Positions 4,293-57,780 are shown, counted from the first letter of the stretch. The stretch is 64,000 nt of DNA from a virus (UHGV-1376088); one strand, 5' to 3'. Made by a program: numbers and translations. The notes: generated from the letters alone by a model not told the origin.

Positions 4293-5413
4293 TAGAAAAT
4301 GCCCTTCAAAATTGCTGCTTCATTTCCGAGAATGTAGCCCTTATCATTCAGTGATGATTTTGATAGTTTAGCAAATGCTCTCTGTCTACTGGTTGCAAGT
4401 TGTGCAGTGTTAACCGAAGTATTGCCAGTAGTTGGCGAGAATAGAGAATTCCTTATTTGCAGGATTCTATTATCCCTGTCTGCCATGCTTTTTGCTAAGC
4501 CGACTACCGCGTCAGTAGCGAGCATTAGGCCTCCACCGACAACAAGTCCACCCATGGTACCTGTTGCTAGTTTTGCGGCACCCCTAATTCTTCCTGCTGC
4601 ACCAAGTGCTTCTCCTGCTGTTCCTCGTCCAATCTTGCCTATAATTGGAGCGCCTTTTAGAAGAGATGTTCCTGCGTGTGTCAATTCTTTGCCAACACGG
4701 AATCCATATGTTCCCAATGCAAGGGATGCGGCCATACCTGCTACAGATGTTGCGGCGTTGTCTGTAATTGTGGATTCTTTATTCCCGAAAATATAGTCAG
4801 ATGCCTCTGATAATGCAAACATGCCGCCTATTGTAGGGGCAAGTCCTGCAAATAACTTATCTGAGGCTTTTGTTGCTGAAGATGCGATAATTGATTTCTG
4901 ATGCTTTGTCATTAAGCCGACAGAGTTCATTAAGTCATCTCGTAATCCATATCCAGTTATGAATTTTCTAGCTCTACCAAGATGGTCCATCGCCCCTGCT
5001 GTTGCAAATGATTCATAGCTGTTAAATGCGTATATATTATTTATCCCGCCGCCCCTTATAGGCTGTGTGGAATTGTATTTACTGGACCCTGGAGCTGCAC
5101 CAAAGATACGCTCTGCTGCTGTTCTATTTCTAGAGTTGGTTATAGCTTCTGCTTTTAGCGCAGTATTTATAGATCCCTTAGAAAGTGGGTCTGTTCCATC
5201 CAGCATCTTTTTGACATCCATATAGCCCTCGTTTGCATTTTTATAATGCAAATTCGTAGACCATTTTATAGGATGATTATGCCCGAGACTATTCTCGAAT
5301 AAGCGTTTAGATGTCCTAATAGTATTTTTCTCTCTAGTTTTACTATTGCTAAAAAGGCCATCTTTTGATTCTAATCGTATTTGGTCCCAAAGCTGAGCCT
5401 TATCAATACTCAT
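4292..5413 (-). CDS. Gly/Ala-rich hypothetical protein (glycine-zipper-like)
   Basis: 373 aa with repeated GxxxG/AxxxG stretches. Two similar proteins lie at 12.8-13.9 kb. Confidence 0.55.
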   Translation of the reverse strand: MSIDKAQLWDQIRLESKDGLFSNSKTREKNTIRTSKRLFENSLGHNHPIKWSTNLHYKNANEGYMDVKKMLDGTDPLSKGSINTALKAEAITNSRNRTAAERIFGAAPGSSKYNSTQPIRGGGINNIYAFNSYESFATAGAMDHLGRARKFITGYGLRDDLMNSVGLMTKHQKSIIASSATKASDKLFAGLAPTIGGMFALSEASDYIFGNKESTITDNAATSVAGMAASLALGTYGFRVGKELTHAGTSLLKGAPIIGKIGRGTAGEALGAAGRIRGAAKLATGTMGGLVVGGGLMLATDAVVGLAKSMADRDNRILQIRNSLFSPTTGNTSVNTAQLATSRQRAFAKLSKSSLNDKGYILGNEAAILKGIF

Positions 5414-7091
5414 GCGCTCTCCTTGACTCCCTATATTGAGCCTCCATATATCCAGCTGGAATTGCCATAGAATAATCTAATGCGTCGAACTTATTGAATG
5501 TGGGGTCATTGTACTGTTTGAAATCTAATGCTTCTTGTCTAGATTTCAGTTTCTTAACCCTCATATCATCATCAAATGAGTCTCCCATCATGTATAGCAA
5601 TCCGCCGGCGGCGGCTAGTCCAACTGCGGGTATACCAACCCTATGATTTTCTGGAAGGATCGATTTTAATATTTCGTTACTATTTCTAACTTTTTTATAT
5701 GTATCTCGTGCAAATCCAGAGAGCGTTTGTTCTGTTCCTGAAGAAACATTGTATCTGCGTATCTTTAATAGCTCTTCATCTGTTAGCTTCTGCCCGTTAA
5801 GCACTTTATCTAGAATCTCAGTGTTCTCTGAATTCAATAAGCCTATTTTAAAAGTAGTATCTGGATTTCTAAGTAAGTCTTGTGCAACCTCTGGATTTCC
5901 CTGGGCCATCTTGACGATTCTTTCAAGCTCTGCATAAGACTGAGTGTTACCATATCTTTCTTTAGACATTGCTAAGAAATTAGCCAATCCTCTCTCATTG
6001 GAGATATCTCTTGTAAACCTTGGAACATCTATATGTCCTGTTTCTCCAGTTATAGAGTTTATAAATGGCACTTGGGCAGTATCGACTCTTTGCTTAGAAT
6101 CCCACGCTCCAAATTCTTTAAACTTCTCTATATTCGAAGTTATTGATTTTGCTGCCTGCATCTCTCTTAGTAGACCTGATGCAGTCTTCATCTTATTAAA
6201 GATACCGGTGCTCTCTTCGGAGATATTTCCGGAAATCAATTCCTCACGCAGAGCTGTGATTTTGTCAAAAAGCCTTATTTGTTGTCTTGCATCGGACAAT
6301 GCGCCGTGGGTTTCTTTTTCGCCTAAGAATAGTTTTGCAAGGAAGTCTACATTATGGCCCATATCCTTGTATATTTCTGGTATATGTCCCTGTGCAGCAG
6401 CCTTAACAAATGTTGCTTTAGTGAAATCCATAAGATCTGCAGCATAGAACATTGGCAATCCGCCTTTAACCGCTCTCTCTGCGTCATATTTCATCACAGA
6501 GGCGTCTACTTTCTTGTAGGCATCAATTACCTTGTCCATGGCTGAATCTAAATCTGAGAGCGTTTTAGCGTCCTTTGCGGCGGCCCTAGCTTTTACAACT
6601 TCAGACGGTGAATACAATTTGGTTTGACCATCTGGTGACCGTTCATACATCTGGCTCATAAGCCTTGATGATGATGACCCATCTAGGCTTGCATAAAATG
6701 CTCGTTCAAACCCTAAGTTCTGAACAAGGACCATTCCTGAATTTCCGAATGTCAGACTATTGTCCAGATGCTTAAGTATTGCCCTGTCTGAAGCTTCAAA
6801 TAGTAGCTCTGCTGATGACGGTTTCTTTTTACCGGAGATATATGTTTGCCACTCTTGGTTTTGTGCATAGAACCCTCTTTTATTTAGGGCTATTTTCTCA
6901 GCCTCTAATTGTTCTCTTGAGGGATTAAATATAGCTTCTGATCCATCGCTTCTTGTTGCCAAACCAACGGACCATATCCTTGCTTTGTGTCTAGCCTTAA
7001 CAACGCCATCTCTAACATCCTTAATTCTTTCCTCTGGATTTGTAGAAGTTGTTTCGAAGTCAAGGGAGATGACATTGCTAAACGGTTTCAT
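5403..7091 (-). CDS. DEDDh (DnaQ-like) 3'-5' exonuclease-domain protein with C-terminal extension and TM segment
   Basis: Exo I motif SLDFETTS, an Exo II-like NLGFERAFY and Exo III motif HGALSDARQ. A hydrophobic segment IPAVGLAAAGGLLYMMG lies near the C-terminus. Confidence 0.6.
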   Translation of the reverse strand: MKPFSNVISLDFETTSTNPEERIKDVRDGVVKARHKARIWSVGLATRSDGSEAIFNPSREQLEAEKIALNKRGFYAQNQEWQTYISGKKKPSSAELLFEASDRAILKHLDNSLTFGNSGMVLVQNLGFERAFYASLDGSSSSRLMSQMYERSPDGQTKLYSPSEVVKARAAAKDAKTLSDLDSAMDKVIDAYKKVDASVMKYDAERAVKGGLPMFYAADLMDFTKATFVKAAAQGHIPEIYKDMGHNVDFLAKLFLGEKETHGALSDARQQIRLFDKITALREELISGNISEESTGIFNKMKTASGLLREMQAAKSITSNIEKFKEFGAWDSKQRVDTAQVPFINSITGETGHIDVPRFTRDISNERGLANFLAMSKERYGNTQSYAELERIVKMAQGNPEVAQDLLRNPDTTFKIGLLNSENTEILDKVLNGQKLTDEELLKIRRYNVSSGTEQTLSGFARDTYKKVRNSNEILKSILPENHRVGIPAVGLAAAGGLLYMMGDSFDDDMRVKKLKSRQEALDFKQYNDPTFNKFDALDYSMAIPAGYMEAQYRESRRAHEY

Positions 7092-7603
7092 CCTATTTCC
7101 TTAAGTAATTTGCGGTAATCGCCATCTTTTTCGAATATCTCTTTTTCTGTGATAAATCTATATTTTGCATTGATCTTATTTTCTTTTAAAAATACAACTG
7201 CGGCTCTAGCTTTTAGTTGTACATTTATTGCCTTTTTGGCAGACGAAGGTTTTATTTCGCATAGTTCTAATCTTCCATCTGAGTATAAGACCAATGCGTC
7301 GGGGATGTAATTCCTTCTTAGCCCGGAATTGTCTGTATATGGTATCTTCATTGGCTCTACGATGTATTTTATAACACTGCTATCAGTGTCCATTCCTTTG
7401 TAGAATGCATACTCGTATAGGCTTCTATATTCGATATCCTTGCCAGCCTTAGTGGAGAAATACTTCCCTGAGCGATATCGCTTACCCTTATTGAAGTAAG
7501 CGCCATTATTTTTTATATGCTCTTCTTTTGTATGTCTGGACTTTTGTATACGTGGAGATTTATTGCGCTTAGGCTTACCACGAATCCTTTTTGAAGCTGT
7601 CAT
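7088..7603 (-). CDS. PD-(D/E)xK nuclease-like protein (possible homing/restriction-type endonuclease)
   Basis: Motif IPDALVLYSDGRLELCEIKP matches the PD..(E)xK signature. The N-terminus is basic. Confidence 0.5.
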   Translation of the reverse strand: MTASKRIRGKPKRNKSPRIQKSRHTKEEHIKNNGAYFNKGKRYRSGKYFSTKAGKDIEYRSLYEYAFYKGMDTDSSVIKYIVEPMKIPYTDNSGLRRNYIPDALVLYSDGRLELCEIKPSSAKKAINVQLKARAAVVFLKENKINAKYRFITEKEIFEKDGDYRKLLKEIG

Positions 7604-8928
7604 TTATTTGAACCATCTATTACGGACTGGTCGATAGATTTATCGACATATTTGCCACGTGTTGCGGCAGTTAACATATCAAGCTTATCTTTAAGTGACT
7701 GGCTACCGCTTCCCATACTTGCACCAGATGCTTGTACAGCGATCTTGGCTCGCTCTTTTCTTGTTGCCATCAGAGATTCTAATAATTTACTTCTTCTGTT
7801 TTTCAGTTTCTCTTTGATATTGAGATATCTTGATATGTCGTCTCTGGCGATCATATTGCCACCAGCATCGAATCCCATTAAATCTTCTTGGCTGAAATCT
7901 TGATGTGTTAATGATAGGATCTGAGTAACCCTTCTTTCATACAAGTCTATTTCAGCGAGTTCTGCAACCATTTGCATTTCTGTTGGGCTATCTGGCTGAA
8001 CGTTGAACTCTTCGAAGTATCTTTCTGTTTGGCTACGCAGATAGTCTTGCTCATAAATACATGGGGCACCTACTGGTGCCTTATTCATCTTGTAAAGCTG
8101 ACAGTTGTGGACCAATAGTCCTTCGGCAAAGAAATTGGAGTTTTTAAATACCTGGATGTCGTATACTGGGAGGACACCAACAACATCTATTGATTCAATT
8201 TTAGTAATTAAACAGTCCCCATATGAGTTGTCTTCTTCACTAAATAGGTCTTCGTATACTAGTTTACTTCCGATTGTAAGACCGTCATCAATAGATAGGA
8301 ATTTAAATTTAGAACCTCTTCCTTTTATAGCAAAGAACTGATGGTCTGACGTTGCCTTAATGCAATGGCCGTCTATGGTTCTAATTTCGTAAACTGTCTT
8401 CTCGCCGACATAGGCTGTGGCATATACCATGTCATGCTCAATACGTTTCGTCTTCGTATTGAATGATATGATTTTATCTCCGCTTTTAATTCGGTCTATT
8501 CTTACTTGTTTTCCATCGTGCATGGAGACCATGGAGTCTCCAGTTAGGCATGTCTCTTTTACCTTACAGTTTGAACCCCTACAAATCATTGGGGAGTATG
8601 TTGATATACCACCATCGGTTGATCGTCTCAAACTAGTGCTGAATGCTAACGCTTCATCTTCTGTTAGTACAATGTTTTCATACAGCTTGTCGTCTAATGA
8701 TAACGCATCTAGGTATCTAGCTCTCGTGATCTTATTATCAACAACTTTGATTCCTCTTGATGAAAACAAAATTGGAATAGATTTTGATTTAGTTTCTTGT
8801 ATCATTGAAACTGTTTTTTCAACTTCTGTTTTTGTCTTGGTTTTCTCTTTTTCTCTCATTTCATGAGCAGAGATTATACCTGCAGACAAATCGAACATTT
8901 CTTGTATTTCTTTATTTGGAATAGCCAT
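7600..8928 (-). CDS. hypothetical packaging-region protein interrupted by a Hint-domain mini-intein
   Basis: Intein block A CLTGDSMV follows an extein Thr. Terminal VHN is followed by Cys. The exteins form a Cys-rich knuckle CRGSNCKVKET/CQLYKMNKAPVGAPC. Confidence 0.7.
   Translation of the reverse strand: MAIPNKEIQEMFDLSAGIISAHEMREKEKTKTKTEVEKTVSMIQETKSKSIPILFSSRGIKVVDNKITRARYLDALSLDDKLYENIVLTEDEALAFSTSLRRSTDGGISTYSPMICRGSNCKVKETCLTGDSMVSMHDGKQVRIDRIKSGDKIISFNTKTKRIEHDMVYATAYVGEKTVYEIRTIDGHCIKATSDHQFFAIKGRGSKFKFLSIDDGLTIGSKLVYEDLFSEEDNSYGDCLITKIESIDVVGVLPVYDIQVFKNSNFFAEGLLVHNCQLYKMNKAPVGAPCIYEQDYLRSQTERYFEEFNVQPDSPTEMQMVAELAEIDLYERRVTQILSLTHQDFSQEDLMGFDAGGNMIARDDISRYLNIKEKLKNRRSKLLESLMATRKERAKIAVQASGASMGSGSQSLKDKLDMLTAATRGKYVDKSIDQSVIDGSNK
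8104..8550 (-). mobile_element. mini-intein (about 149 aa, no endonuclease domain) inside CDS 7600-8928
   Basis: Residues 127-275 run from Cys1 (CLTGDS) to the C-terminal HN, with +1 Cys. The size fits a Hint-only intein. Confidence 0.65.
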
Positions 8929-49515: not shown

Positions 49516-49704
49516 ATGGAACTAAAAGAAAATGGAGTTTACCGCCACTATAAAGGCGGAGAATACAAATTAATAACTATTGGTGAACTTGAACACGACT
49601 TATCTCAAGTCGTTGTCTATAAAAGCATCACTAATGATAGAGTTTTTGTAAGACCTTTAGAGGAATTTGAAGATAAATTCGAATTCCTATATATGGGAGG
49701 GTAG
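49516..49704 (+). CDS. DUF1653-like small protein (YRHYKGGEY)
   Basis: 62 aa; AAAGG RBS. The stop overlaps the tRNA-Met 5' end. Confidence 0.5.
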   Translation: MELKENGVYRHYKGGEYKLITIGELEHDLSQVVVYKSITNDRVFVRPLEEFEDKFEFLYMGG

Positions 49705-49772
49705 CTCAGTGGTCCGAGAGCGGGCGACTCATAATCGCTTGGTCACGGGTTCGAATCCCGTCCTTCCCACCA
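49695..49772 (+). tRNA. tRNA-Met(CAT) (elongator or Ile2-type), CCA encoded
   Basis: Acceptor GGGAGGG/CCTTCCC, D-arm GCTCAGTGGTCCGAGAGC, anticodon loop CTCATAA and T-loop TTCGAAT. Confidence 0.85.
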
Positions 49773-49791
49773 TCTATATCTAGGAAAGCAA

Positions 49792-49965
49792 ATGTTGAAC
49801 GATAGCGATTACATGGACAACAATGGCGGCTATTACGAACTTGTTTGCATTGCCAAAATGGAATCTGATTCATCTTTAATGGCAGTCTATATCAATAAGC
49901 AGACGTATGAATATTGCGTTTGCCCTGCTTCTGAATTTGAAGAGAAGTTTAAACCCGTCCCATGA
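49792..49965 (+). CDS. small protein, paralog-like to 49516 (EFEEKF C-terminus)
   Basis: 57 aa; AGGAAAG RBS. Confidence 0.4.
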   Translation: MLNDSDYMDNNGGYYELVCIAKMESDSSLMAVYINKQTYEYCVCPASEFEEKFKPVP

Positions 49966-50159
49966 AAATCTGGAAAATCAAAAAGATACAAATCAAAGAA
50001 ATCCTTGAAACAAAAGGATATTTCTTTTGTAATAAATATAAGCATTCACATGACAAAGCAAGAAGAATTATGCGCGAGCTGTGCAAAGAGGGTTTAGCAG
50101 AAAAGTGTGCTAGCCCTGCTGGACAAGTGGATGCTGTTTGTATTAGGGCCATAAAATGA
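49962..50159 (+). CDS. small basic protein
   Basis: 65 aa; ATGA overlap. Confidence 0.4.
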   Translation: MKIWKIKKIQIKEILETKGYFFCNKYKHSHDKARRIMRELCKEGLAEKCASPAGQVDAVCIRAIK

Positions 50160-50269
50160 GCACAACGACTATTTTACTACTTGTTCTTGCCAGTATCGTT
50201 GGCGGAATTATTATCGGGTTTATTGTTTTTGCTTTGTATTTTGCAAAAGGTTTCAAAATTAATTTCTAA
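50156..50269 (+). CDS. small membrane peptide (37 aa)
   Basis: ATGA overlap; one TM helix. Confidence 0.3.
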   Translation: MSTTTILLLVLASIVGGIIIGFIVFALYFAKGFKINF

Positions 50270-50304
50270 ACCTTATCTTAGAATTTTTGTCTAAAGGAAA
50301 CAAA

Positions 50305-51882
50305 ATGGCATCACCATTATTTAAAACTTCTCGTATCAATGTCTCTACGGGAGCATCTGTATCTGTACAGTCCAATAAGGTTAATACAACAAATGAATCC
50401 GGCGGCACTGCTTATGCTATGACACATCAGCATGCCCTTGCGCAATATGCTGTAACCGGTATGCTTGACGGCTATCTTCATGTTGATGGTCGAACTCAGC
50501 TGTCTCGTATTATTGAGCTGGCTGAAAAATGTAACAATAAGTATGTTGCGCAAGTTGCAATTTATGCCCACGAAAAAGGCTTCATGAAAGATACTTCTGC
50601 TTTGTTGCTGGGATATCTGATGAAAAAAGACCGCGATTTGTTTAACGCAATTTTTAAACGTATCATTACAAATGGCCGAATGTTAAGAACTTTCGTTCAA
50701 ATCATTCGTTCCGGTACTTTTGGCAATCGCAGTTTTGGTACAAATGCCAAACGCCAAATCCAAGATTGGCTAAATTCCGCAACAGACAAAACAATTATTA
50801 ATGCCTCCATTGGTAATGATCCGTCTCTGAAAGACATTATCAAAATGGTTCATCCAAAAGCACCAAATGAAAATCGTAACCAACTTTATCGTTGGGTTTG
50901 CGATATGGATTACCAGGAAGATAAACTTCCTGAACAGCTTCAACTGTATTTAAAATTGAAGCGTAATCCAGAAAAAGCAGAAGAACTGCCGGATTTGCCG
51001 TTCCAAATGTATACCTCTATGGGTTTAACAACAGAAGGTTGGAAACATATTGCTAATAATGCGACATGGAATCAGACCCGTATGAACTTGGCAACATTTG
51101 AGCGACATGGTGTATTTGGTGATAAAAGTTTTGCCGACAGAATTGCTGAGAAGCTTACATCTGAGCGTGATATCATTCGAAGTAAAGCTATGCCATTTGC
51201 CATTTTCTCTGCCTTTAAAAAGGCGGGCGATATTAGCTATAATATCCGCAAGGCTTTGAATAAAGCTGCAGAAATTTCTCTGCAAAATGTTCCGAAATTG
51301 GAAGGTAAAACAGTTGTTGCTGTTGACCGTTCTGGATCTATGTCCAGTCTGATTAATAGTCGCTCAACTGTTCGTGTAATGGATGTTGCAGCTGTTCTTG
51401 TTGCTGCTTTGAAAAACAAAAATCCAGATTTGGAAATTGTTTTATTCAATGACACAGCGTCCATTTATAAGCCAAAAGGCAAAACTCTTTTTGGTATCAG
51501 CGAAGAGCTTTCTCGTATGGCAAGCGGCGGAACAGATTGTGGTGCCGCAATGAAGTTTATCAAAAACCGGTACACAGATAAAGGCATGCCCGATAATATC
51601 ATCATGATTTCAGACAATGAATCATGGTTAGGTATGAGCAAGAATTTCTGGACATCCACAGGAACAGTTGAACAACTGAAATTAATTCGTCGTTCAAATC
51701 CTAATACCCGAATGATCAATATTGACGTAACTCCAGGTTCAAGTTCACAAACAGTTCCTGAAGAATACGTACTAAATATCGGCGGCTTTAATGACGCAGT
51801 ATTCCAAATCGCATCATTGTTCTTTAATTCTAAAGGCAATAAAGACTTTTGGATTTCTGAAATTAATAAAGTAGAAATTTAA
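50305..51882 (+). CDS. rsr: Ro60 ortholog (TROVE domain plus vWA; Rsr-like RNA-binding protein)
   Basis: N-terminal SGGTAYAM and TFVQIIRSGTFGNRSFGTNAKRQIQDWL resemble the human Ro60 segments EGGTYYIK and TFIQFKK...WGRALRKAIADWY. The C-terminal vWA MIDAS is VVAVDRSGSMSS plus GGTDCG. Confidence 0.8.
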   Translation: MASPLFKTSRINVSTGASVSVQSNKVNTTNESGGTAYAMTHQHALAQYAVTGMLDGYLHVDGRTQLSRIIELAEKCNNKYVAQVAIYAHEKGFMKDTSALLLGYLMKKDRDLFNAIFKRIITNGRMLRTFVQIIRSGTFGNRSFGTNAKRQIQDWLNSATDKTIINASIGNDPSLKDIIKMVHPKAPNENRNQLYRWVCDMDYQEDKLPEQLQLYLKLKRNPEKAEELPDLPFQMYTSMGLTTEGWKHIANNATWNQTRMNLATFERHGVFGDKSFADRIAEKLTSERDIIRSKAMPFAIFSAFKKAGDISYNIRKALNKAAEISLQNVPKLEGKTVVAVDRSGSMSSLINSRSTVRVMDVAAVLVAALKNKNPDLEIVLFNDTASIYKPKGKTLFGISEELSRMASGGTDCGAAMKFIKNRYTDKGMPDNIIMISDNESWLGMSKNFWTSTGTVEQLKLIRRSNPNTRMINIDVTPGSSSQTVPEEYVLNIGGFNDAVFQIASLFFNSKGNKDFWISEINKVEI

Positions 51883-52006
51883 TTTTAGATTTACAAAACA
51901 AAAATGTGTGGTTTAATCACTTCTACTGAGTAAGTAGAGTAATAGGTATCTCATTTCTTGTTTTCGGGGTACCTATTGCTATGTTTACTTTAGAGTCTAA
52001 GTGTAG

Positions 52007-52073
52007 CGCAGTCCGGTAGCGCATCTGCTTTGGGAGCAGAGGGTTGCAGGTTCGAATCCTGCCTCTTAGACCA
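52007..52073 (+). tRNA. tRNA-Pro(TGG), CCA encoded
   Basis: Anticodon loop TTTGGGA and T-arm GCAGGTTCGAATCCTGC; one acceptor mismatch. Confidence 0.8.
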
Positions 52074-52086
52074 CATTACAATTTTC

Positions 52087-52210
52087 GGGTGGTTAGTTTA
52101 ATGGGAAAACATTAAGTAATCTTTCTACTATTGTCTGAAAAGAATGCTTGAGAGATTTACATTTCACGGCTAATGAAAAGATACAGGTTCGAGTCCTGTA
52201 CCACCCTCCA
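52087..52210 (+). ncRNA. tRNA-mimic ncRNA with an inserted module of about 48 nt (Y-RNA-like candidate or intron-containing tRNA)
   Basis: Perfect 7-bp acceptor GGGTGGT/ACCACCC, D-arm GTTTAATGGGAAAAC and T-arm ACAGGTTCGAGTCCTGT plus CCA. About 55 nt, instead of 17, lies between the D- and T-arms. Confidence 0.4.
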
Positions 52211-52215
52211 TATAT

Positions 52216-52357
52216 GGGCTGTTGGCGAAATTGGTAGACGCAAGGGTCATTTATAACCTATCAAACTTGTCCGATAGGAATGCCGATAGGTTTACATTTT
52301 TAAATTGAAAACTTAAGGACAACCCTCGATTTGCAGGTTCGACTCCTGCACAGCCCG
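52216..52357 (+). ncRNA. tRNA-mimic ncRNA with an inserted module of about 57 nt (Y-RNA-like candidate or intron-containing tRNA)
   Basis: Acceptor GGGCTGT/ACAGCCC, class-II D-arm GCGAAATTGGTAGACGC and T-arm GCAGGTTCGACTCCTGC. Candidate anticodon-stem halves AGGGT and ACCCT lie about 75 nt apart. Confidence 0.4.
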
Positions 52358-52367
52358 CCCTTTTAAT

Positions 52368-52619
52368 GCGAAGATAGTTTAATTGGTAAAACGCCACGCA
52401 AATCTTAGAATAATAACCATTATGTAGAGCCAAGTGGCTCGAAGAGCATACTCTATATTAAGATAGGGCTGGGTGCAATCCCGGGTATAGGCTAACGATC
52501 TATACTGAATGTAAATATTTTATGTCGAAAGACAGATAGCTCAATCCTTTAAGGAATGGTCTAAGATGGATAATTTCCGCGGTAAAGTGGTCATGCGGTG
52601 TCGATAGCTGCTCTTCGCT
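52368..52619 (+). ncRNA. possible third tRNA-mimic locus with a central insertion of about 195 nt
   Basis: 5' GCGAAGA plus D-arm-like TAGTTTAATTGGTAAAAC. The 3' partner is TCTTCGC, preceded by the T-arm-like GCGGTGTCGATAGCTGC. It abuts the previous locus. Confidence 0.2.
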
Positions 52620-52655
52620 CCCTATTTAATTAACTGAATATCCAAAGGATTTAAG

Positions 52656-53183
52656 ATGCAGACGATTGCAATAAACCTAATAGGTGCACCCGGAACGGGC
52701 AAAAGCACAATAGCATCTGAGCTCTTTGCCAAGATGAAGTGGCTTGGATATGATGTTGAGTTGGTTTCCGAATACGCAAAAGAATTGGTTTGGGAACAAA
52801 GAAACGAAACTTTCAAGAATGAACTGTATCTATTTGCAAAACAGCATCATAGAATGTTTAGATTAAATGGTAAGGTGAAGTATATTATTACAGACCGCCC
52901 ATTAATTTTGTCTATTTTTTATAATCAAAAATATGGAAATGGCAGCAAAACATTCCGGCAGCTTGTATTGGAAGAAACAAATAAGTTTCAAAATATCAAT
53001 GTATTTCTGAATAGAACCAAACCATATGTTCAAAATGGCAGAAATCAAAGTGAAGAAGAATCCAATGAATTTGCAAAAGAAATATTCGAATCTCTTGAAA
53101 AATATTGCAATGGATATCTAATTCTAGACGCTGTTGAAAACCAGGCGTCTGAACATATATTGAATTTTGCAAAACAAGAATAA
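52656..53183 (+). CDS. P-loop kinase, AAA_28/NadR ribosylnicotinamide-kinase-like
   Basis: GAPGTGKST P-loop followed by ELVSEYAKELV. The IITDRPL and C-terminal blocks are co-linear with the NadR RNK domain. Confidence 0.55.
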   Translation: MQTIAINLIGAPGTGKSTIASELFAKMKWLGYDVELVSEYAKELVWEQRNETFKNELYLFAKQHHRMFRLNGKVKYIITDRPLILSIFYNQKYGNGSKTFRQLVLEETNKFQNINVFLNRTKPYVQNGRNQSEEESNEFAKEIFESLEKYCNGYLILDAVENQASEHILNFAKQE

Positions 53184-53196
53184 GAATAGGTACAAC

Positions 53197-53397
53197 ATGA
53201 AAGAGTACACATTCTCATACAGGTTTGATAATAAAGCTTGGTCTTTCAGTATTTATGCAAACAGCGAAGAAGAAGCCAAGAGAAAGTTCTGGGCTTTAAA
53301 AGAAAATGGCAAATATTGCGGCGAGATTGTATGCAAAGTGAATGCTACAAAGCCGTACAGTTTTATTAAATCCATTTTGTCGAAGTTTAAGACATAA
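53197..53397 (+). CDS. hypothetical small protein
   Basis: 66 aa from an internal ATG of ORF 53167. Confidence 0.35.
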   Translation: MKEYTFSYRFDNKAWSFSIYANSEEEAKRKFWALKENGKYCGEIVCKVNATKPYSFIKSILSKFKT

Positions 53398-53413
53398 GTT
53401 TAAGTTTAAATGC

Positions 53414-53506
53414 GCTCCCGTACCATAAAAGGATAATGGAACTGACTTCTAATCAGTAAGCCAAACGAAGGCGAGTATGCGGGTTCGAGTCCTGCCGGGA
53501 GTGCCA
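53414..53506 (+). tRNA. tRNA with anticodon TCT (Arg-type) and an unusually long (about 21-nt) variable region
   Basis: Acceptor GCTCCCG/CGGGAGT, anticodon arm ACTGA-CTTCTAA-TCAGT, T-arm GCGGGTTCGAGTCCTGC and CCA. Length 93 nt. Confidence 0.6.
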
Positions 53507-53529
53507 AAATGCCACAATCTATATATTAT

Positions 53530-53626
53530 TATGGATTTCATTAAAAATAATGTTACTATTGATGAAGTAACTGGATGTTGGAATTGGAATAAATCTGTAA
53601 CAAGTGCAGGTTATGGTCAATCTTAG
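53530..53626 (+). pseudogene. decayed HNH homing-endonuclease N-terminal fragment
   Basis: MDFIKNNVTIDEVTGCWELE* in one frame. After a frameshift the reading continues as NKSVTSAGYGQS*, matching the GCW/GYGQ hallmarks of the HNH N-terminal region. No HNH catalytic core follows. Confidence 0.4.
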
Positions 53627-53870: not shown

Positions 53871-54075
53871 GACATAAACTGCCTGGCATGATGCAGTTTT
53901 AACTATCTAATCTGCCATTATTATTCTCAGTCTGGCATTCGCCAAAATGTTGCCGCATTTTGAGAATGATAAAATCATAGATGGTTATTTTCTGGTCCTA
54001 GCAGTCAATTTAGTTGACCCAGTACACTGTAAGCTGGAACTAAAGATAACGATTTAAACCCTGTTCTCCCTAAGC

Positions 54076-54146
54076 AATAATGTAGTTCAGTGGTAGAGCG
54101 TCTGCAATTTGGCAGAATGGCGGTGGTTCGATTCCACCCTTTATTG
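54076..54146 (+). tRNA. tRNA-like gene with a 6-nt anticodon loop (AATTTG) and an acceptor mismatch; possible pseudo-tRNA
   Basis: D-arm GTTCAGTGGTAGAGC and T-arm GGTGGTTCGATTCCACC are canonical. The anticodon stem TCTGC/GCAGA closes a 6-nt loop. Confidence 0.4.
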
Positions 54147-54631
54147 ACGAGAACAGGTACTCAATTTAATAATGAATCTTTATTCAGATTCATTTAGTCT
54201 GACAATGGTGTGATGAAATCTTAAGGGCTGTTCTTTGGATATTCTTAGTCTAATATTGAAATGTGCATTTCTTTATTGGGCTCTGTTTTATTTGAAGATA
54301 AAGCTTAAAAGGTTGCGATAGCAATAAAAACAATAAGGTGTTGCACAGCGCCTGTTTGGAGTATATTGTGAATGCTTGCACGTGTGCCGCGGAGGTACAA
54401 GGTTCCCGGAGTGGGATAAGTCAGACTAAATGTATTTGAAGCTAATTAAAGCTTAAAGATTTAAGCCCTGCTGATTTCTTATATAATATTGTTTATTATG
54501 ATTATTCTTATATTAGATAAATACTATTTTATCTTTTTCATTTTTCAGCAGGCATATTTAAGCCCTATTAGTTTATTCCGCAATATAGCTAAAATATTGT
54601 TCTAAAAATTAATAGGCAAAATAAAGATTAT

Positions 54632-57689: not shown

Positions 57690-57780
57690 ACCACCTTAGC
57701 TTAATGGTAAAGCAGCGAGCTTATACCTCGTAACGACAGATAATCGGCTGATCTGGGTTCGAGTCCCGGAGGTGGTACCA
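57690..57780 (+). tRNA. tRNA with anticodon TAT (Ile AUA-reading type) and a long (about 21-nt) variable region, CCA encoded
   Basis: Acceptor ACCACCT/AGGTGGT, anticodon arm GCGAG-CTTATAC-CTCGT and T-arm CTGGGTTCGAGTCCCGG. Confidence 0.6.

What the first reader, a model, noticed from the sequence alone, without database searches (positions are those of the whole stretch)
50305..52619. Ro60 (TROVE+vWA) ortholog followed by three tandem tRNA-mimic RNAs inside a phage tRNA array
The 525-aa protein at 50305-51882 has a TROVE-like N-terminus, seen in its segments SGGTAYAM and TFVQIIRSGTFGNRSFGTNAKRQIQDWL. Its C-terminal vWA domain carries a MIDAS motif, DRSGSMSS with GGTD, which is the Ro60/Rsr architecture. 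Directly downstream, after a canonical tRNA-Pro, sit three abutting loci at 52087-52210, 52216-52357 and 52368-52619. Each has a perfect or near-perfect tRNA acceptor stem, a D-arm at the 5' end and a T-arm (and CCA in the first) at the 3' end. The anticodon-arm region is replaced by about 48, 57 and 195 extra nucleotides respectively. Bacterial Y RNAs are known to be encoded next to rsr and to contain tRNA-like modules. These loci could therefore be phage Y-RNA-like partners of the Ro protein. They could alternatively be intron-containing tRNAs. A NadR-like kinase lies just after them.
Basis: partly seen in the sequence, partly recalled or inferred. Interest (0 to 1): 0.85.

Follow-up and report, generated by a model that had tools for sequence, protein, structure and literature searches.

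The report
Phage Ro60 with tRNA-shaped Y RNAs
A ~185-kb phage encodes a Ro60 RNA-binding protein and, right beside it in its tRNA gene array, two RNAs built like tRNAs whose anticodon arm is replaced by the Ro60-binding stem of bacterial Y RNAs, a new circularly permuted form of a known RNA family.

Summary
50305-51882 encodes a full-length Ro60/Rsr ortholog. It is followed by tRNA-Pro and then three tRNA-like genes, each with a 7-bp acceptor stem, a D arm and a T arm but no anticodon loop.

Loci 1 (52087-52210) and 2 (52216-52357) are YrlA-type Y RNAs in tRNA gene order. Their inserts (52118-52161, 52255-52296) have the YrlA Ro60-binding module: an 8-bp helix, a ..UUG / AUGC internal loop, a short UCY/RGA helix and a trailing UACAU. 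The module is capped by a tetraloop instead of carrying the RNA ends.

I built covariance models only from bacterial YrlAs that I had circularly permuted. The Ro-stem model's top two window hits are these inserts; the full-length model ranks locus 1 first (62 bits), above every tRNA, and aligns locus 2 end to end (40 bits, below four tRNAs). Covariation supports every helix counted. Seven related phages and one independent phage lineage carry the same design.

The intron reading is rejected for loci 1 and 2. Locus 3 (52368-52619) is a conserved structured tRNA-like RNA with a different, unidentified 195-nt insert. Ro60 binding, processing and function are inferred, not shown.

Verdict: a new variant of a known kind, of moderate to high interest.

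The parts
50305..51882 (+). Ro60/Rsr ortholog (TROVE/HEAT-repeat region plus vWA domain with MIDAS motif), 525 aa
   Evidence: Pfam vWA_Ro60 6e-12. phmmer to phiLo Ro60 9KOP/9L5Y 8.7e-15 over residues 32-518. Profile hits to 2NVO, 9KOP, 9NEN and 1YVP at 1e-24 to 1e-27. 36-42% identity over residues 25-525 to Rsr in 80 bacterial genomes.
51997..52073 (+). Canonical tRNA-Pro(UGG), the gene just upstream of the Y RNAs
   Evidence: ARAGORN. Rfam tRNA 66.5 bits. The order Ro60, tRNA-Pro, tRNA-like RNAs is kept in L001-L006 and L008.
52087..52210 (+). Y RNA 1 (scaffold family A): a YrlA in tRNA order. Acceptor 52087-52093 / 52200-52206; D arm 52096-52110; T arm 52183-52199; discriminator T 52207; encoded CCA 52208-52210.
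   Evidence: Rfam tRNA 46.8 bits with the anticodon arm skipped. Best hit in the window of R2, the full-length model built from permuted bacterial YrlAs: 62.4 bits, E = 1.4e-13, model positions 1-117. Acceptor and T-stem covariation.
52118..52161 (+). Ro60-binding module of Y RNA 1: H2a AAUCUUUC, loop UACUAUUG, P1 UCU-GAAA-AGA, loop AUGCUU, H2b GAGAGAUU, then UACA(U)
   Evidence: R1, the model built only from bacterial YrlA Ro stems: 22.8 bits, E = 1.2e-3, second-best hit in the 64-kb window searched on both strands with filters off. Covariation.
52216..52357 (+). Y RNA 2 (scaffold family B, class-II-like D arm): a YrlA in tRNA order. Acceptor 52216-52222 / 52350-52356; anticodon-stem-like helix 52243-52247 / 52322-52326; V hairpin 52300-52316; T arm 52333-52349; discriminator G 52357.
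   Evidence: R2 gives 40.4 bits end to end, with the module aligned and the V hairpin treated as an insertion. Constrained folds. Homologs in L001, L003-L006, L010 and L047.
52255..52296 (+). Ro60-binding module of Y RNA 2: H2a AACCUAUC, loop AAACUUG, P1 UCC-GAUA-GGA, loop AUGCC, H2b GAUAGGUU, then UACA(U)
   Evidence: R1 gives 25.5 bits, E = 2.4e-4, the best hit in the window. Collinear with canonical modules such as L149 GUUUCAUC-AAAAUCUUG-UCGC..GCGA-AUGCC-GAUGGAAC-UACAU.
52368..52619 (+). Third tRNA-like RNA, on the scaffold shared with family C. Acceptor 52368-52374 / 52612-52618, with a structured ~195-nt insert of unknown nature replacing the anticodon arm.
   Evidence: Acceptor pairs 7 of 7. 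RNAalifold on three homologs finds 6 pairs kept through changes on both sides. No Rfam hit. No R1 hit. R2 gives 6.9 bits. This insert type occurs only in the window and the contigs behind L004 and L002.
52656..53183 (+). P-loop kinase-like protein (AAA_28 / NadR-like), a syntenic neighbour and not demonstrably part of the system
   Evidence: Pfam AAA_28 2.7e-15. Present after the RNAs in L001-L003, L006 and L008; absent in L004 and L005.

Best explanation
**What it is.** Loci 1 and 2 are phage-encoded Y RNAs of the YrlA type, written in tRNA order. The RNA ends lie at a normal 7-bp acceptor stem, with CCA encoded in locus 1. D and T arms form a tRNA elbow. The anticodon stem-loop is replaced by the YrlA Ro60-binding module: an 8-bp helix, an asymmetric internal loop ..UUG / AUGC(N), a 3-4-bp helix UCY/RGA and the flanking UACAU kink motif. 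A tetraloop, usually GNRA, caps the module.

Canonical YrlA is the circular permutation of this design. There the ends lie in the Ro stem and the acceptor stem is closed by a loop.

**How it most likely works (inferred).**
1. The RNAs are transcribed with the tRNA array.
2. RNase P and the tRNA 3'-end pathway release them like tRNAs.
3. The adjacent Ro60 binds the capped module.
4. The tRNA-like body, now carrying a free 3' end, serves as the effector or stability domain of the Ro60 RNP. By analogy with known systems, that RNP may recruit a host exoribonuclease such as PNPase, or take part in RNA repair or anti-defence.

**Locus 3.** It uses the same kind of scaffold with a different structured cargo. 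Its role is unknown.

**Shown versus inferred.** Shown: homology, architecture and conservation. Inferred: binding, processing and biological role.
For: 1. **Ro60 identity.** Full-length similarity to solved Ro60/Rsr structures and 36-42% identity to bacterial Rsr.
2. **Canonical partners beside the relatives.** In the 38 bacterial rsr loci scanned, Rfam finds 22 YrlAs at or above the gathering score, in 17 of the loci.
3. **Collinear sequence.**
   - Canonical YrlA, cut and rejoined: GUUUCAYC-AnnnCUUG-UCGC..GCGA-AUGCC-GRUGGAAC-UACAU.
   - Window locus 2: AACCUAUC-AAACUUG-UCC-GAUA-GGA-AUGCC-GAUAGGUU-UACAU.
4. **Ro-stem model (R1).** Built only from 16 bacterial YrlA Ro stems, permuted and closed with GAAA.
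   - Its two best hits in the 64-kb window are exactly the two inserts: 25.5 and 22.8 bits. The next hit scores 13.5 bits.
   - In seven related loci its top 14 hits are all such inserts, the best at 42.6 bits, E = 6.5e-9.
   - 217 kb of other phage Ro60 loci gave only three hits, all in L259, a locus with Y RNAs of its own.
5. **Full-length model (R2).** Built from 14 bacterial YrlAs permuted into tRNA order.
   - It ranks locus 1 first in the window (62.4 bits, end to end).
   - Real tRNAs score at most 48.1 bits; in the alignments printed (the two best-scoring tRNAs) the 47-position module block is skipped.
   - It aligns locus 2 end to end.
   - Nine A- and C-type homologs (A, B and C are the three scaffold types of these RNAs) and the L249 RNA score 54.5-79.3 bits; tRNAs reach at most 54.5, one of them tying the weakest homolog. 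Four B-type homologs score 39-43 bits, among the tRNAs.
6. **Covariation.**
   - Module helices: 98% paired, 9 of 12 pairs changed on both sides, against at most 2 in the slid controls.
   - Acceptor and T stems: 100% paired, 10 of 12 pairs compensatory.
7. **Autonomous units.** Single isolated copies occur in L008, L006 and L249.
8. **Independent lineage.** L249 (Ro60 36% identical) carries one such RNA with the canonical YrlA D-arm sequence, flanked by two minimal Y RNAs.
9. **Published precedent.**
   - M. smegmatis YrlA is cut by RNase P in its acceptor loop and receives CCA (PMC4201824).
   - YrlA is described as resembling a circularly permuted tRNA with a conserved UA kink (bioRxiv 10.1101/312249).
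   - A phage Ro60 binds adjacent Y-like RNAs and host PNPase (PMC12135203).
   - For phage Bas63, the authors guessed that some tRNA genes next to its Ro60-like gp130 are Y RNAs (PMC11482910).
Against: - No expression, processing or binding data exist.
- The capped P1 helix is only 3-4 bp, against 6 bp or more in canonical YrlA.
- The C of the published GNCGAAN0-1G motif is a purine here (RGAAUG). That base pair is kept but flipped, so recognition by Ro60 may differ.
- The Rfam YrlA model does not reach threshold: 17.8 bits against 69.
- E-values from my models come from a shortened calibration and are rough.
- R1 also hits the junctions between tandem canonical YrlAs in bacteria. The permuted reading therefore rests on three other points: within-unit pairing, the tetraloop cap and the isolated single units.
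- Sequences of neighbouring units are similar enough to allow partial pairing between units (6-7 of 8 pairs in H2).
- Locus 3 does not fit the model.
Confidence: 0.75

Rival explanations
1. The loci are real tRNA genes interrupted by introns in the anticodon region. Splicing would give normal tRNAs.
For: ARAGORN in intron mode proposes tRNA-Leu(GAG) with a 30-nt intron and tRNA-Lys(UUU) with a 67-nt intron. Relatives of this phage do carry a tRNA-Met(CAU) split by a group I intron.
Against: - The ARAGORN calls need non-standard stems and an odd intron position (31/32).
- No 7-nt anticodon loop can be rebuilt in any of the 19 homologs.
- Inserts of 44-60 nt are far too short for group I introns, and no intron family matches.
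- Models of the YrlA Ro-binding stem recognise the insert.
- The insert sequence (UUGUC, GAAUGC, UACAU) is better conserved than an intron would need to be.
- Bacteria have no known machinery for splicing protein-dependent tRNA introns of this kind (general knowledge).
Confidence: 0.03
2. They descend from YrlA but no longer work with Ro60. They would be decaying relics, or tRNA-like decoys or scaffolds that act on tRNA-binding enzymes or host tRNA-targeting defences independently of Ro60.
For: - P1 is short and the CGAA cytosine is lost.
- The number and type of copies vary between close relatives, from 1 to 3, and one slot is swapped for the locus-3 type.
- They sit in a tRNA array next to a phage MetRS.
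Against: - The internal-loop nucleotides are strictly conserved: UUGUC, GAAUGC and UACA are invariant or nearly so across 19 copies, while the helices covary.
- These RNAs lie within about 0.1-1.5 kb downstream of Ro60 in all nine related contigs. In L249, an independent lineage, the RNA lies about 2.2 kb downstream.
Confidence: 0.12
3. The array is read in the canonical YrlA register. Each functional RNA would run from one module's loop to the next, with the acceptor stem formed between neighbouring units, as in bacterial tandem YrlA arrays.
For: Bacterial rsr loci carry tandem canonical YrlAs, and R1 hits their junctions. Neighbouring phage units are similar enough to give 5-6 of 7 acceptor pairs and 6-7 of 8 H2 pairs between units (read from the sequences).
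Against: - Within-unit pairing is perfect and covaries.
- P1 is closed by a 4-nt loop and is only 3-4 bp long, too short to hold free ends together.
- The first unit begins with acceptor plus D arm directly after tRNA-Pro, and the last unit ends with T arm plus acceptor.
- Single isolated units exist in L008, L006 and L249.
Confidence: 0.03
4. This rival concerns locus 3 only, so its confidence is separate from the figures for loci 1 and 2. Locus 3 would be a Y-type module that acquired a large structured insertion in its 5' internal loop, and it may or may not still bind Ro60.
For: - Its scaffold matches family C, which carries the Y module at the same position in L001, L005 and L006.
- The helix AUCUUAGA/UCUAAGAU occupies the H2 position and covaries.
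- The window and L002 copies keep UCC-loop-GGA-AUGG directly 5' of the 3' strand of that helix (read).
Against: - L004 lacks the UCC..GGA-AUGG element.
- There is no UACAU motif.
- There is no R1 or R2 match.
- Only three sequences are known.
- The T loop is atypical.
Confidence: 0.3

Closest known systems
YrlA (Rfam RF02553), the tRNA-like Y RNA encoded next to rsr in many bacteria and some phages (Chen et al. 2014, PMC4201824)
   Same: - It is encoded beside a Ro60 ortholog, often in several copies.
- The Ro-binding module has the same helix, internal loop and helix, with AAUGC on one strand and CUUGUC on the other, plus the UACAU kink motif.
- The tRNA-like D arm, T arm and 7-bp acceptor-like stem are connected in the same order around the molecule.
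   Different: - The molecule is circularly permuted. Here the ends are at the acceptor stem (free 3' end, CCA encoded in several copies) and the Ro stem is a capped hairpin of 3-4 bp.
- In YrlA the ends are in a Ro stem of 6 bp or more and the acceptor stem is a closed hairpin.
- The motif reads RGAAUG instead of CGAAUG.
- The Rfam model scores only 17.8 bits against a cut-off of 69.
[quoted passage not shown]
   Same: [quoted passage not shown] The result is an open acceptor end carrying CCA on a Ro60-bound RNA.
   Different: That RNA becomes two pieces held together by base pairing, because its Ro stem is also open. The phage RNAs would be a single chain, with the open acceptor end encoded directly.
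Deinococcus radiodurans Yrn1 and the Yrn1-like RNA seen in locus L259
   Same: [quoted passage not shown]
   Different: In Yrn1 the Ro-binding stem itself occupies the acceptor position and an anticodon-like hairpin is present. Here the Ro module occupies the anticodon position and the acceptor stem is a true tRNA-like one.
Thermus phage phiLo Ro60 with Yrl1/Yrl2 (PMC12135203)
   Same: A phage Ro60, and the best solved-structure match to the single window protein. It binds Y-like RNAs encoded next to it and assembles with host PNPase.
   Different: As described in the paper, Yrl1 and Yrl2 are canonical stem-bulge-stem Y RNAs upstream of the gene, with ends in the Ro stem. The retrieved passages mention no tRNA-like domain.
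tmRNA and viral tRNA-like structures
   Same: They are tRNA mimics with a free CCA-bearing acceptor end and a T arm. In tmRNA a large functional domain sits where the anticodon arm would be. tmRNA genes also lie next to phage Ro60 in L132 and L253.
   Different: There is no G3-U70 pair, no tag reading frame and no pseudoknot ring. ARAGORN and the Rfam tmRNA model do not match. The inserted domain is a Ro60-binding stem.
tRNA genes with group I introns (for example the tRNA-Met(CAU) in L006 and L008)
   Same: The tRNA gene is interrupted in the anticodon region, and this occurs in the same phage group.
   Different: The intron in L006/L008 is about 240 nt, matches Rfam Intron_gpI (84-95 bits) and leaves an intact anticodon loop after removal. 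Loci 1-3 do none of these.

Membership tests
Ro60 / Rsr (TROVE protein) | TROVE (HEAT-repeat ring) region recognisable by sequence | tested here: met
   Pfam TROVE alone is below its cut-off (16.6 vs 23 bits). However, phmmer aligns residues 32-518 to phiLo Ro60 (8.7e-15). A four-sequence profile hits 2NVO, 9KOP, 9NEN and 1YVP at 1e-24 to 1e-27 over the full length. The protein is 36-42% identical to bacterial Rsr. Of four relatives scanned, three pass the Pfam TROVE cut-off (L169, L249 and phage Mx1); L204 scores 21.2 bits, just under it.
Ro60 / Rsr (TROVE protein) | C-terminal vWA domain with MIDAS motif (DxSxS...T...D) | tested here: met
   Pfam vWA_Ro60 6e-12, above its cut-off. D341, S343, S345 and D437, together with G408 and G409 of the GGTD motif, are invariant in the seven-sequence alignment; T410 is invariant in the four closest sequences.
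Ro60 / Rsr (TROVE protein) | Ring-shaped three-dimensional structure that binds Y RNA on its outer surface | not tested
   I ran no structure prediction. The inference rests on full-length sequence similarity to solved Ro60 rings.
YrlA-type Y RNA (RF02553) | Encoded next to a Ro60 ortholog | tested here: met
   The loci lie 205-740 nt downstream of the Ro60 stop codon. The linkage is conserved in the seven related IMG/VR loci and in L249.
YrlA-type Y RNA (RF02553) | Ro60-binding module: helix, asymmetric internal loop and helix, with the conserved 5'-strand motif GNCGAAN0-1G | tested here: inconclusive
   The architecture and most conserved bases are present (UUGUC, GAAUGC, UACAU). A model built only from bacterial modules finds both inserts as its top hits. 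The motif's C is a purine here, with the base pair flipped, and the helix beyond it is only 3-4 bp. Some canonical YrlAs also deviate from the motif (GUGAAUG, GCAAAUG).
YrlA-type Y RNA (RF02553) | tRNA-like domain with D arm, T arm, acceptor-like stem and conserved tertiary-contact bases | tested here: met
   Rfam tRNA scores 46.8 bits on locus 1. T8, A14 and the T-loop positions T-T-C-x-A are invariant across 19 copies, and the D-loop Gs are invariant or nearly so. Acceptor and T stems covary.
YrlA-type Y RNA (RF02553) | Topology: 5' and 3' ends in the Ro stem, acceptor stem closed by a loop | tested here: not met
   The ends are at the acceptor stem and the Ro stem is closed by a tetraloop. 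This is the defining difference. The RNAs are homologs in a permuted topology, not members of the family as modelled.
YrlA-type Y RNA (RF02553) | Rfam gathering score (69 bits) | tested here: not met
   The best hit is 17.8 bits. It spans the T arm of locus 2 and the D arm of locus 3, an artefact of adjacent genes. After permuting the family in silico, the full-length model gives 62.4 bits for locus 1 and 40.4 bits for locus 2.
YrlA-type Y RNA (RF02553) | Physical binding to Ro60 | not testable with these tools
   This needs EMSA or co-immunoprecipitation.
tRNA (RF00005) | Cloverleaf with a 5-bp anticodon stem and 7-nt anticodon loop | tested here: not met
   The Rfam alignment skips 63 nt in place of the anticodon arm. 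Default ARAGORN does not call any of the three loci. No anticodon loop is recoverable in the constrained folds.
Group I intron in tRNA | Match to the Intron_gpI model, with intact tRNA exons after removal | tested here: not met
   There is no Intron_gpI hit at E <= 10 in 51880-52660. The same model scores 84-95 bits on the genuine tRNA-Met intron in L006 and L008.
tmRNA | tRNA-Ala-like acceptor with G3-U70, tag reading frame, match to the tmRNA models | tested here: not met
   ARAGORN and Rfam give no tmRNA call in the window. Position 3 pairs as G-C in all three loci.

The most novel reading that the evidence does not exclude
The free, tRNA-like CCA end is functional. These Y RNAs would be matured, perhaps even aminoacylated or bound by EF-Tu, the CCA-adding enzyme or host tRNA-targeting defence nucleases. 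Ro60 would then be delivered to, or shield, the tRNA machinery: a Ro60-loaded tRNA decoy used by the phage against tRNA-directed or RNA-directed host defences. On this reading the tRNA-order form would also be the ancestral link between tRNAs and canonical YrlA, which would have arisen from it by tandem duplication and permutation.
Probability: 0.12. Interest if true: 0.85.

Novelty: new variant of a known kind. Interest (0 to 1): 0.62.

Why it matters
**Function of the tRNA-like domain.** Y RNAs and Ro60 are conserved from bacteria to humans, yet the role of the tRNA-like domain of bacterial Y RNAs is unknown. A natural version with a true acceptor end shows three things.
- The Ro-binding stem and the tRNA body are separable modules that tolerate circular permutation.
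- The link to tRNA-processing enzymes, seen so far only in M. smegmatis, becomes a testable general idea.
- There is a plausible evolutionary route between tRNA and YrlA. Tandem YrlA arrays in bacteria are exactly the intermediate that permutation by duplication requires.

**Genome annotation.** Standard tools miss these RNAs or mislabel them. The Rfam YrlA model fails, tRNA finders skip them or call them intron-containing tRNAs, and phage annotations list only 'tRNA' genes next to Ro60. The published guess that some tRNA genes beside the Ro60-like anti-defence protein gp130 of phage Bas63 are Y RNAs (PMC11482910) now has a concrete sequence and structure model to search with.

Tried and rejected
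1. **Rfam scans**. YrlA gave only sub-threshold hits spanning adjacent genes. This was uninformative because of the permutation, and nothing matched locus 3.
2. **ARAGORN intron mode**. It proposed Leu(GAG) and Lys(UUU) with introns. I rejected these as forced fits.
3. **blastn of 49600-53600 against GenBank phages**. Only generic tRNA matches came back, and no close isolate.
4. **A loose DNA pattern for the module in IMG/VR**. It returned mostly chance hits. It was useful only for recovering the contigs behind L010 and L047.
5. **Exact-motif scans for the locus-3 insert**. No new homologs appeared, and the 15-mer hits elsewhere fall in unrelated sequence.
6. **The seven-sequence Ro60 alignment** was too divergent for the genome scan, so I replaced it with a four-sequence alignment.
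7. **Group I intron, tmRNA and small self-cleaving ribozymes** as identities for the inserts. None had model support. The short inserts do not resemble hammerhead or pistol ribozymes by eye.
8. **R1 on Mx1, Coruscant, csAssE-Sib, Forza and L007** and on 26 other viral Ro60 loci. No permuted modules turned up there. L249 was found instead through a long tRNA hit.
9. **Supplements and reviews.** The supplementary alignments of Chen et al. 2014, and the reviews PMC10870794 and PMC6047535, were not available.
10. **Promoter and terminator scan**. Not informative.

Full report
**1. What is in the sequence**

The window is part of a phage genome of about 185 kb.
- It carries a T4-type terminase, an intein-containing ORF, a YadA-like adhesin, a methionyl-tRNA synthetase, an RNase H and 14 tRNA genes called by ARAGORN, all on the + strand.
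- The identical Ro60 protein occurs on at least 12 metagenome contigs, eight of them in the 50-200 kb size class; the three shown are 182-189 kb.
- The ORF 50305-51882 is followed by tRNA-Pro(UGG) at 51997-52073.
- Three further loci follow. Each has a perfect 7-bp acceptor stem, a D arm and a T arm, but a long insertion where the anticodon arm should be.
- Default ARAGORN calls none of the three. The Rfam tRNA model hits locus 1 at 46.8 bits only by skipping 63 nt.

**2. The protein is a Ro60/Rsr ortholog**

- Pfam finds the Ro60-specific vWA domain (6e-12) but only a sub-threshold TROVE match.
- phmmer against PDB sequences aligns residues 32-518 with the Ro60 of Thermus phage phiLo (8.7e-15).
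- A profile of the window protein and three relatives hits D. radiodurans Rsr (7.8e-27), phiLo Ro60, human Ro60 and Xenopus Ro60 (1.9e-24) over essentially their full length.
The best 80 are 36-42% identical over residues 25-525 and come from many phyla.
- The closest isolated phage is Myxococcus phage Mx1, at 35% identity.
- The MIDAS residues are conserved.

**3. Relatives and the conserved insert**

Seven IMG/VR contigs of 171-188 kb encode Ro60 at 58-95% identity with the same gene order: Ro60, tRNA-Pro, tRNA-like loci, usually the kinase-like gene, then tRNA-Arg.

Reading the downstream regions side by side showed that the inserts share one motif:

AAYCUnnn-(4-6 nt)UUG-UCY-(tetraloop)-RGA-AUGC(N)-nnnAGRUU-UACAUUU

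The motif sits on three different tRNA-like scaffolds, which I call A, B and C.
- Window locus 1 is type A.
- Window locus 2 is type B.
- Type C occupies the third slot in L001, L005 and L006.
- Each phage has one to three such genes.

**4. The insert is the YrlA Ro60-binding module, capped**

The Rfam YrlA consensus printed has 5' ..CGAAUGC.. and 3' ..CUUGUCG.., the two strands of the Ro60-binding stem. To compare properly I needed real YrlAs.
- In 38 of the 80 bacterial rsr loci, Rfam found 22 YrlAs at or above its gathering score, in 17 of the loci and often in tandem.
- Canonical YrlA reads: 5' nnGCGA-AUGCC-GGUGGAAC-UACAU ... T arm, acceptor hairpin, D arm ... GUUUCACC-AnUCCUUG-UCGCnn 3'.
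- Joining the 3' strand to the 5' strand gives GUUUCAYC-AnnnCUUG-UCGC-loop-GCGA-AUGCC-GRUGGAAC-UACAU.
- Window locus 2 reads AACCUAUC-AAACUUG-UCC-GAUA-GGA-AUGCC-GAUAGGUU-UACAU. It is collinear, with the same helix and loop lengths.

**5. Formal tests with models built only from bacterial sequences**

Model R1 (Ro stem only):
- I built it from 16 bacterial Ro stems, permuted and closed by GAAA.
- I searched the whole window on both strands with filters off. The two best hits are 52254-52297 (25.5 bits, E = 2.4e-4) and 52117-52162 (22.8 bits, E = 1.2e-3). The next hit scores 13.5 bits, E = 0.46.
- In seven related loci the top 14 hits are all inserts of the tRNA-like genes, up to 42.6 bits, E = 6.5e-9.
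- In 217 kb around 26 other viral Ro60 genes only one locus (L259) was hit, and it has Y RNAs of its own.

Model R2 (full length):
- I built it from 14 bacterial YrlAs cut in the acceptor loop and rejoined at the Ro stem, that is, converted to tRNA order.
- It ranks locus 1 first in the window: 62.4 bits, E = 1.4e-13, end to end with the module aligned.
- Genuine tRNAs score at most 48.1 bits; in the alignments printed (the two best-scoring tRNAs) the 47 module positions are skipped.
- Locus 2 aligns end to end at 40.4 bits. Its extra hairpin falls at the position of the YrlA 'V' stem-loop.
- A- and C-type homologs in relatives score 54.5-79.3 bits and B-type homologs 39-43 bits; tRNAs there reach 54.5.

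E-values from these models are rough, but the separation from background is clear.

**6. Covariation**

- On the R1-guided alignment of 15 distinct modules, 98.2% of cells pair. Nine of 12 pairs show changes on both sides, against at most 2 in the slid controls. No shuffle reached the observed values for paired cells, for both-sided changes or for the covariation score; 4 of 500 reached the count of further pair types.
- On 19 full-length copies the acceptor and T stems are 100% paired, with compensatory changes at 10 of 12 positions.
- The internal-loop bases (UUGUC, GAAUGC, UACA) are invariant or nearly so. That is the pattern expected of a protein-binding site flanked by structural helices.

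**7. Why the tRNA-order reading is right**

R1 also hits bacterial loci, but there it matches junctions between tandem canonical YrlAs, with 10-50-nt spacers and mismatched H2 helices. In the phage four things differ:
- The short P1 helix is closed by a 4-nt loop, usually GNRA.
- H2 pairs perfectly within each unit.
- The first unit starts with acceptor plus D arm directly after tRNA-Pro.
- Single isolated units exist in L008, L006 and L249.

L249 is an independent lineage, with Ro60 36% identical on a 70-kb viral contig. Its tRNA-order RNA (7179-7307; R2 63.1 bits) keeps the canonical YrlA D-arm sequence UAGCUCA..GGUAGAGC. Two minimal Y RNAs of ordinary topology flank it.

**8. Relation to what is known**

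- Chen et al. 2014 (PMC4201824) described YrlA next to Ro60 in more than 250 bacteria and phages. They defined the motif GNCGAAN0-1G and showed that M. smegmatis YrlA, which has a 7-bp acceptor stem, is cut by RNase P and receives CCA.
- Wang et al. 2018 (bioRxiv 10.1101/312249) solved the tRNA-like domain. [quoted passage not shown] That UA is the UA of UACAU, which is present here.
- The phage RNAs are thus the un-permuted counterpart: tRNA order, free acceptor end and a capped Ro stem.
- My literature searches found no description of this topology.
- The nearest statement is a guess in a 2024 preprint (PMC11482910): some tRNA genes downstream of the Ro60-like anti-defence protein gp130 of phage Bas63 may be Y RNAs.
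- The differences that keep me from filing these RNAs as plain members of RF02553 are the topology, the 3-4-bp P1 helix and RGAAUG in place of CGAAUG.

**9. Mechanism (inferred)**

- Because the units are spaced 5-13 nt from tRNA-Pro and from one another and have tRNA acceptor stems, they are probably released by RNase P and the tRNA 3'-processing pathway.
- CCA is encoded in locus 1 and in eight of the other 18 homologs aligned, and would have to be added to the rest.
- Ro60 would bind the capped module at the far end of the L-shaped RNA.
- By analogy with the bacterial Ro60-Y RNA-PNPase complex and with phiLo Ro60-Yrl-PNPase (PMC12135203), the RNP may redirect a host exoribonuclease, or act in RNA repair or anti-defence.
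- None of this is shown here.

Tandem YrlA arrays in bacteria, together with the partial complementarity between neighbouring phage units, fit an origin of one topology from the other by duplication and permutation. The direction is unknown.

**10. Locus 3 (52368-52619)**

- It shares its scaffold with family C but carries a different insert. The insert is about 195 nt here and in L004, and about 90 nt in L002.
- The three copies show six base pairs kept through changes on both sides, including in the T stem, so it is a functional structured RNA.
- It matches no Rfam family, not R1 and not R2 (6.9 bits).
- No further homologs were found.
- A helix at the H2 position and, in two of the three copies, a UCC-loop-GGA-AUGG element hint that it is a Y module with a large insertion in its 5' loop. 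This is speculative.

**11. Verdict**

- The intron alternative is rejected for loci 1 and 2.
- The real novelty is the permuted, tRNA-order topology of a YrlA-type Y RNA. It recurs in at least two phage lineages, and current tRNA and Y-RNA detection tools miss or misread it.

Noticed in passing
L008 5605-5908 and L006 5606-5910: Upstream of Ro60 in these two relatives, a tRNA-Met(CAU) gene is split in its anticodon loop by a group I intron of about 240 nt (Rfam Intron_gpI 95 and 83.6 bits). The window has an intron-less tRNA-Met at 49695-49772.
   Followed up: partly
window 45249-46913 (+): A phage-encoded methionyl-tRNA synthetase (Pfam tRNA-synt_1g, 3e-137) lies just upstream of the tRNA/Ro60 region.
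   Followed up: no
window 39083-40876 (+): An ORF has YadA-like head, stalk and membrane-anchor domains. This is a trimeric autotransporter adhesin inside a phage genome and hints at a Gram-negative host.
   Followed up: no
window 7600-8928 (-): An ORF contains an intein splicing domain (Pfam Intein_splicing, 5e-16).
   Followed up: no
window 54075-54148, 53414-53506, 57690-57780: The array holds some odd tRNAs. ARAGORN calls one with an undetermined two-base 'tt' anticodon. tRNA-Arg(UCU) is 93 nt and tRNA-Ile(UAU) is 91 nt, both with long extra arms that are unusual for those identities.
   Followed up: no
L169 2441-2970, L195 6365-6778, L148 4971-5255, L173 4705-4963, L163 4648-4870: Bacterial rsr loci usually carry two to four canonical YrlAs in head-to-tail tandem. 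The junction between units mimics the capped module found in the phage.
   Followed up: partly
L149, L168, L188, L164 (contigs assigned to Acidobacteriota and Polyangiaceae MAGs): Long tRNA arrays (4 to 18 genes in the 3 kb shown) lie directly upstream of rsr. These contigs may be phage or prophage DNA binned with bacterial genomes.
   Followed up: no
L259 5640-6400: A 269-kb viral contig has at least four Y-like RNAs downstream of Ro60. One (about 6080-6200) has its D arm, an anticodon-like hairpin and its T arm in tRNA order inside the Ro stem, an arrangement like that of D. radiodurans Yrn1.
   Followed up: no
L132 4456-4859 (Gordonia phage Forza) and L253 6515-6881: tmRNA genes lie within 0.4 kb (L132) and 1.3 kb (L253) of phage Ro60 genes. 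Forza also has a sub-threshold canonical YrlA (52 bits) inside its tRNA array at 5233-5332.
   Followed up: no
window 51936-51985: A long imperfect hairpin (AATAGGTATC...GGTACCTATT) lies between the Ro60 stop codon and tRNA-Pro. It may be a processing or termination signal.
   Followed up: no
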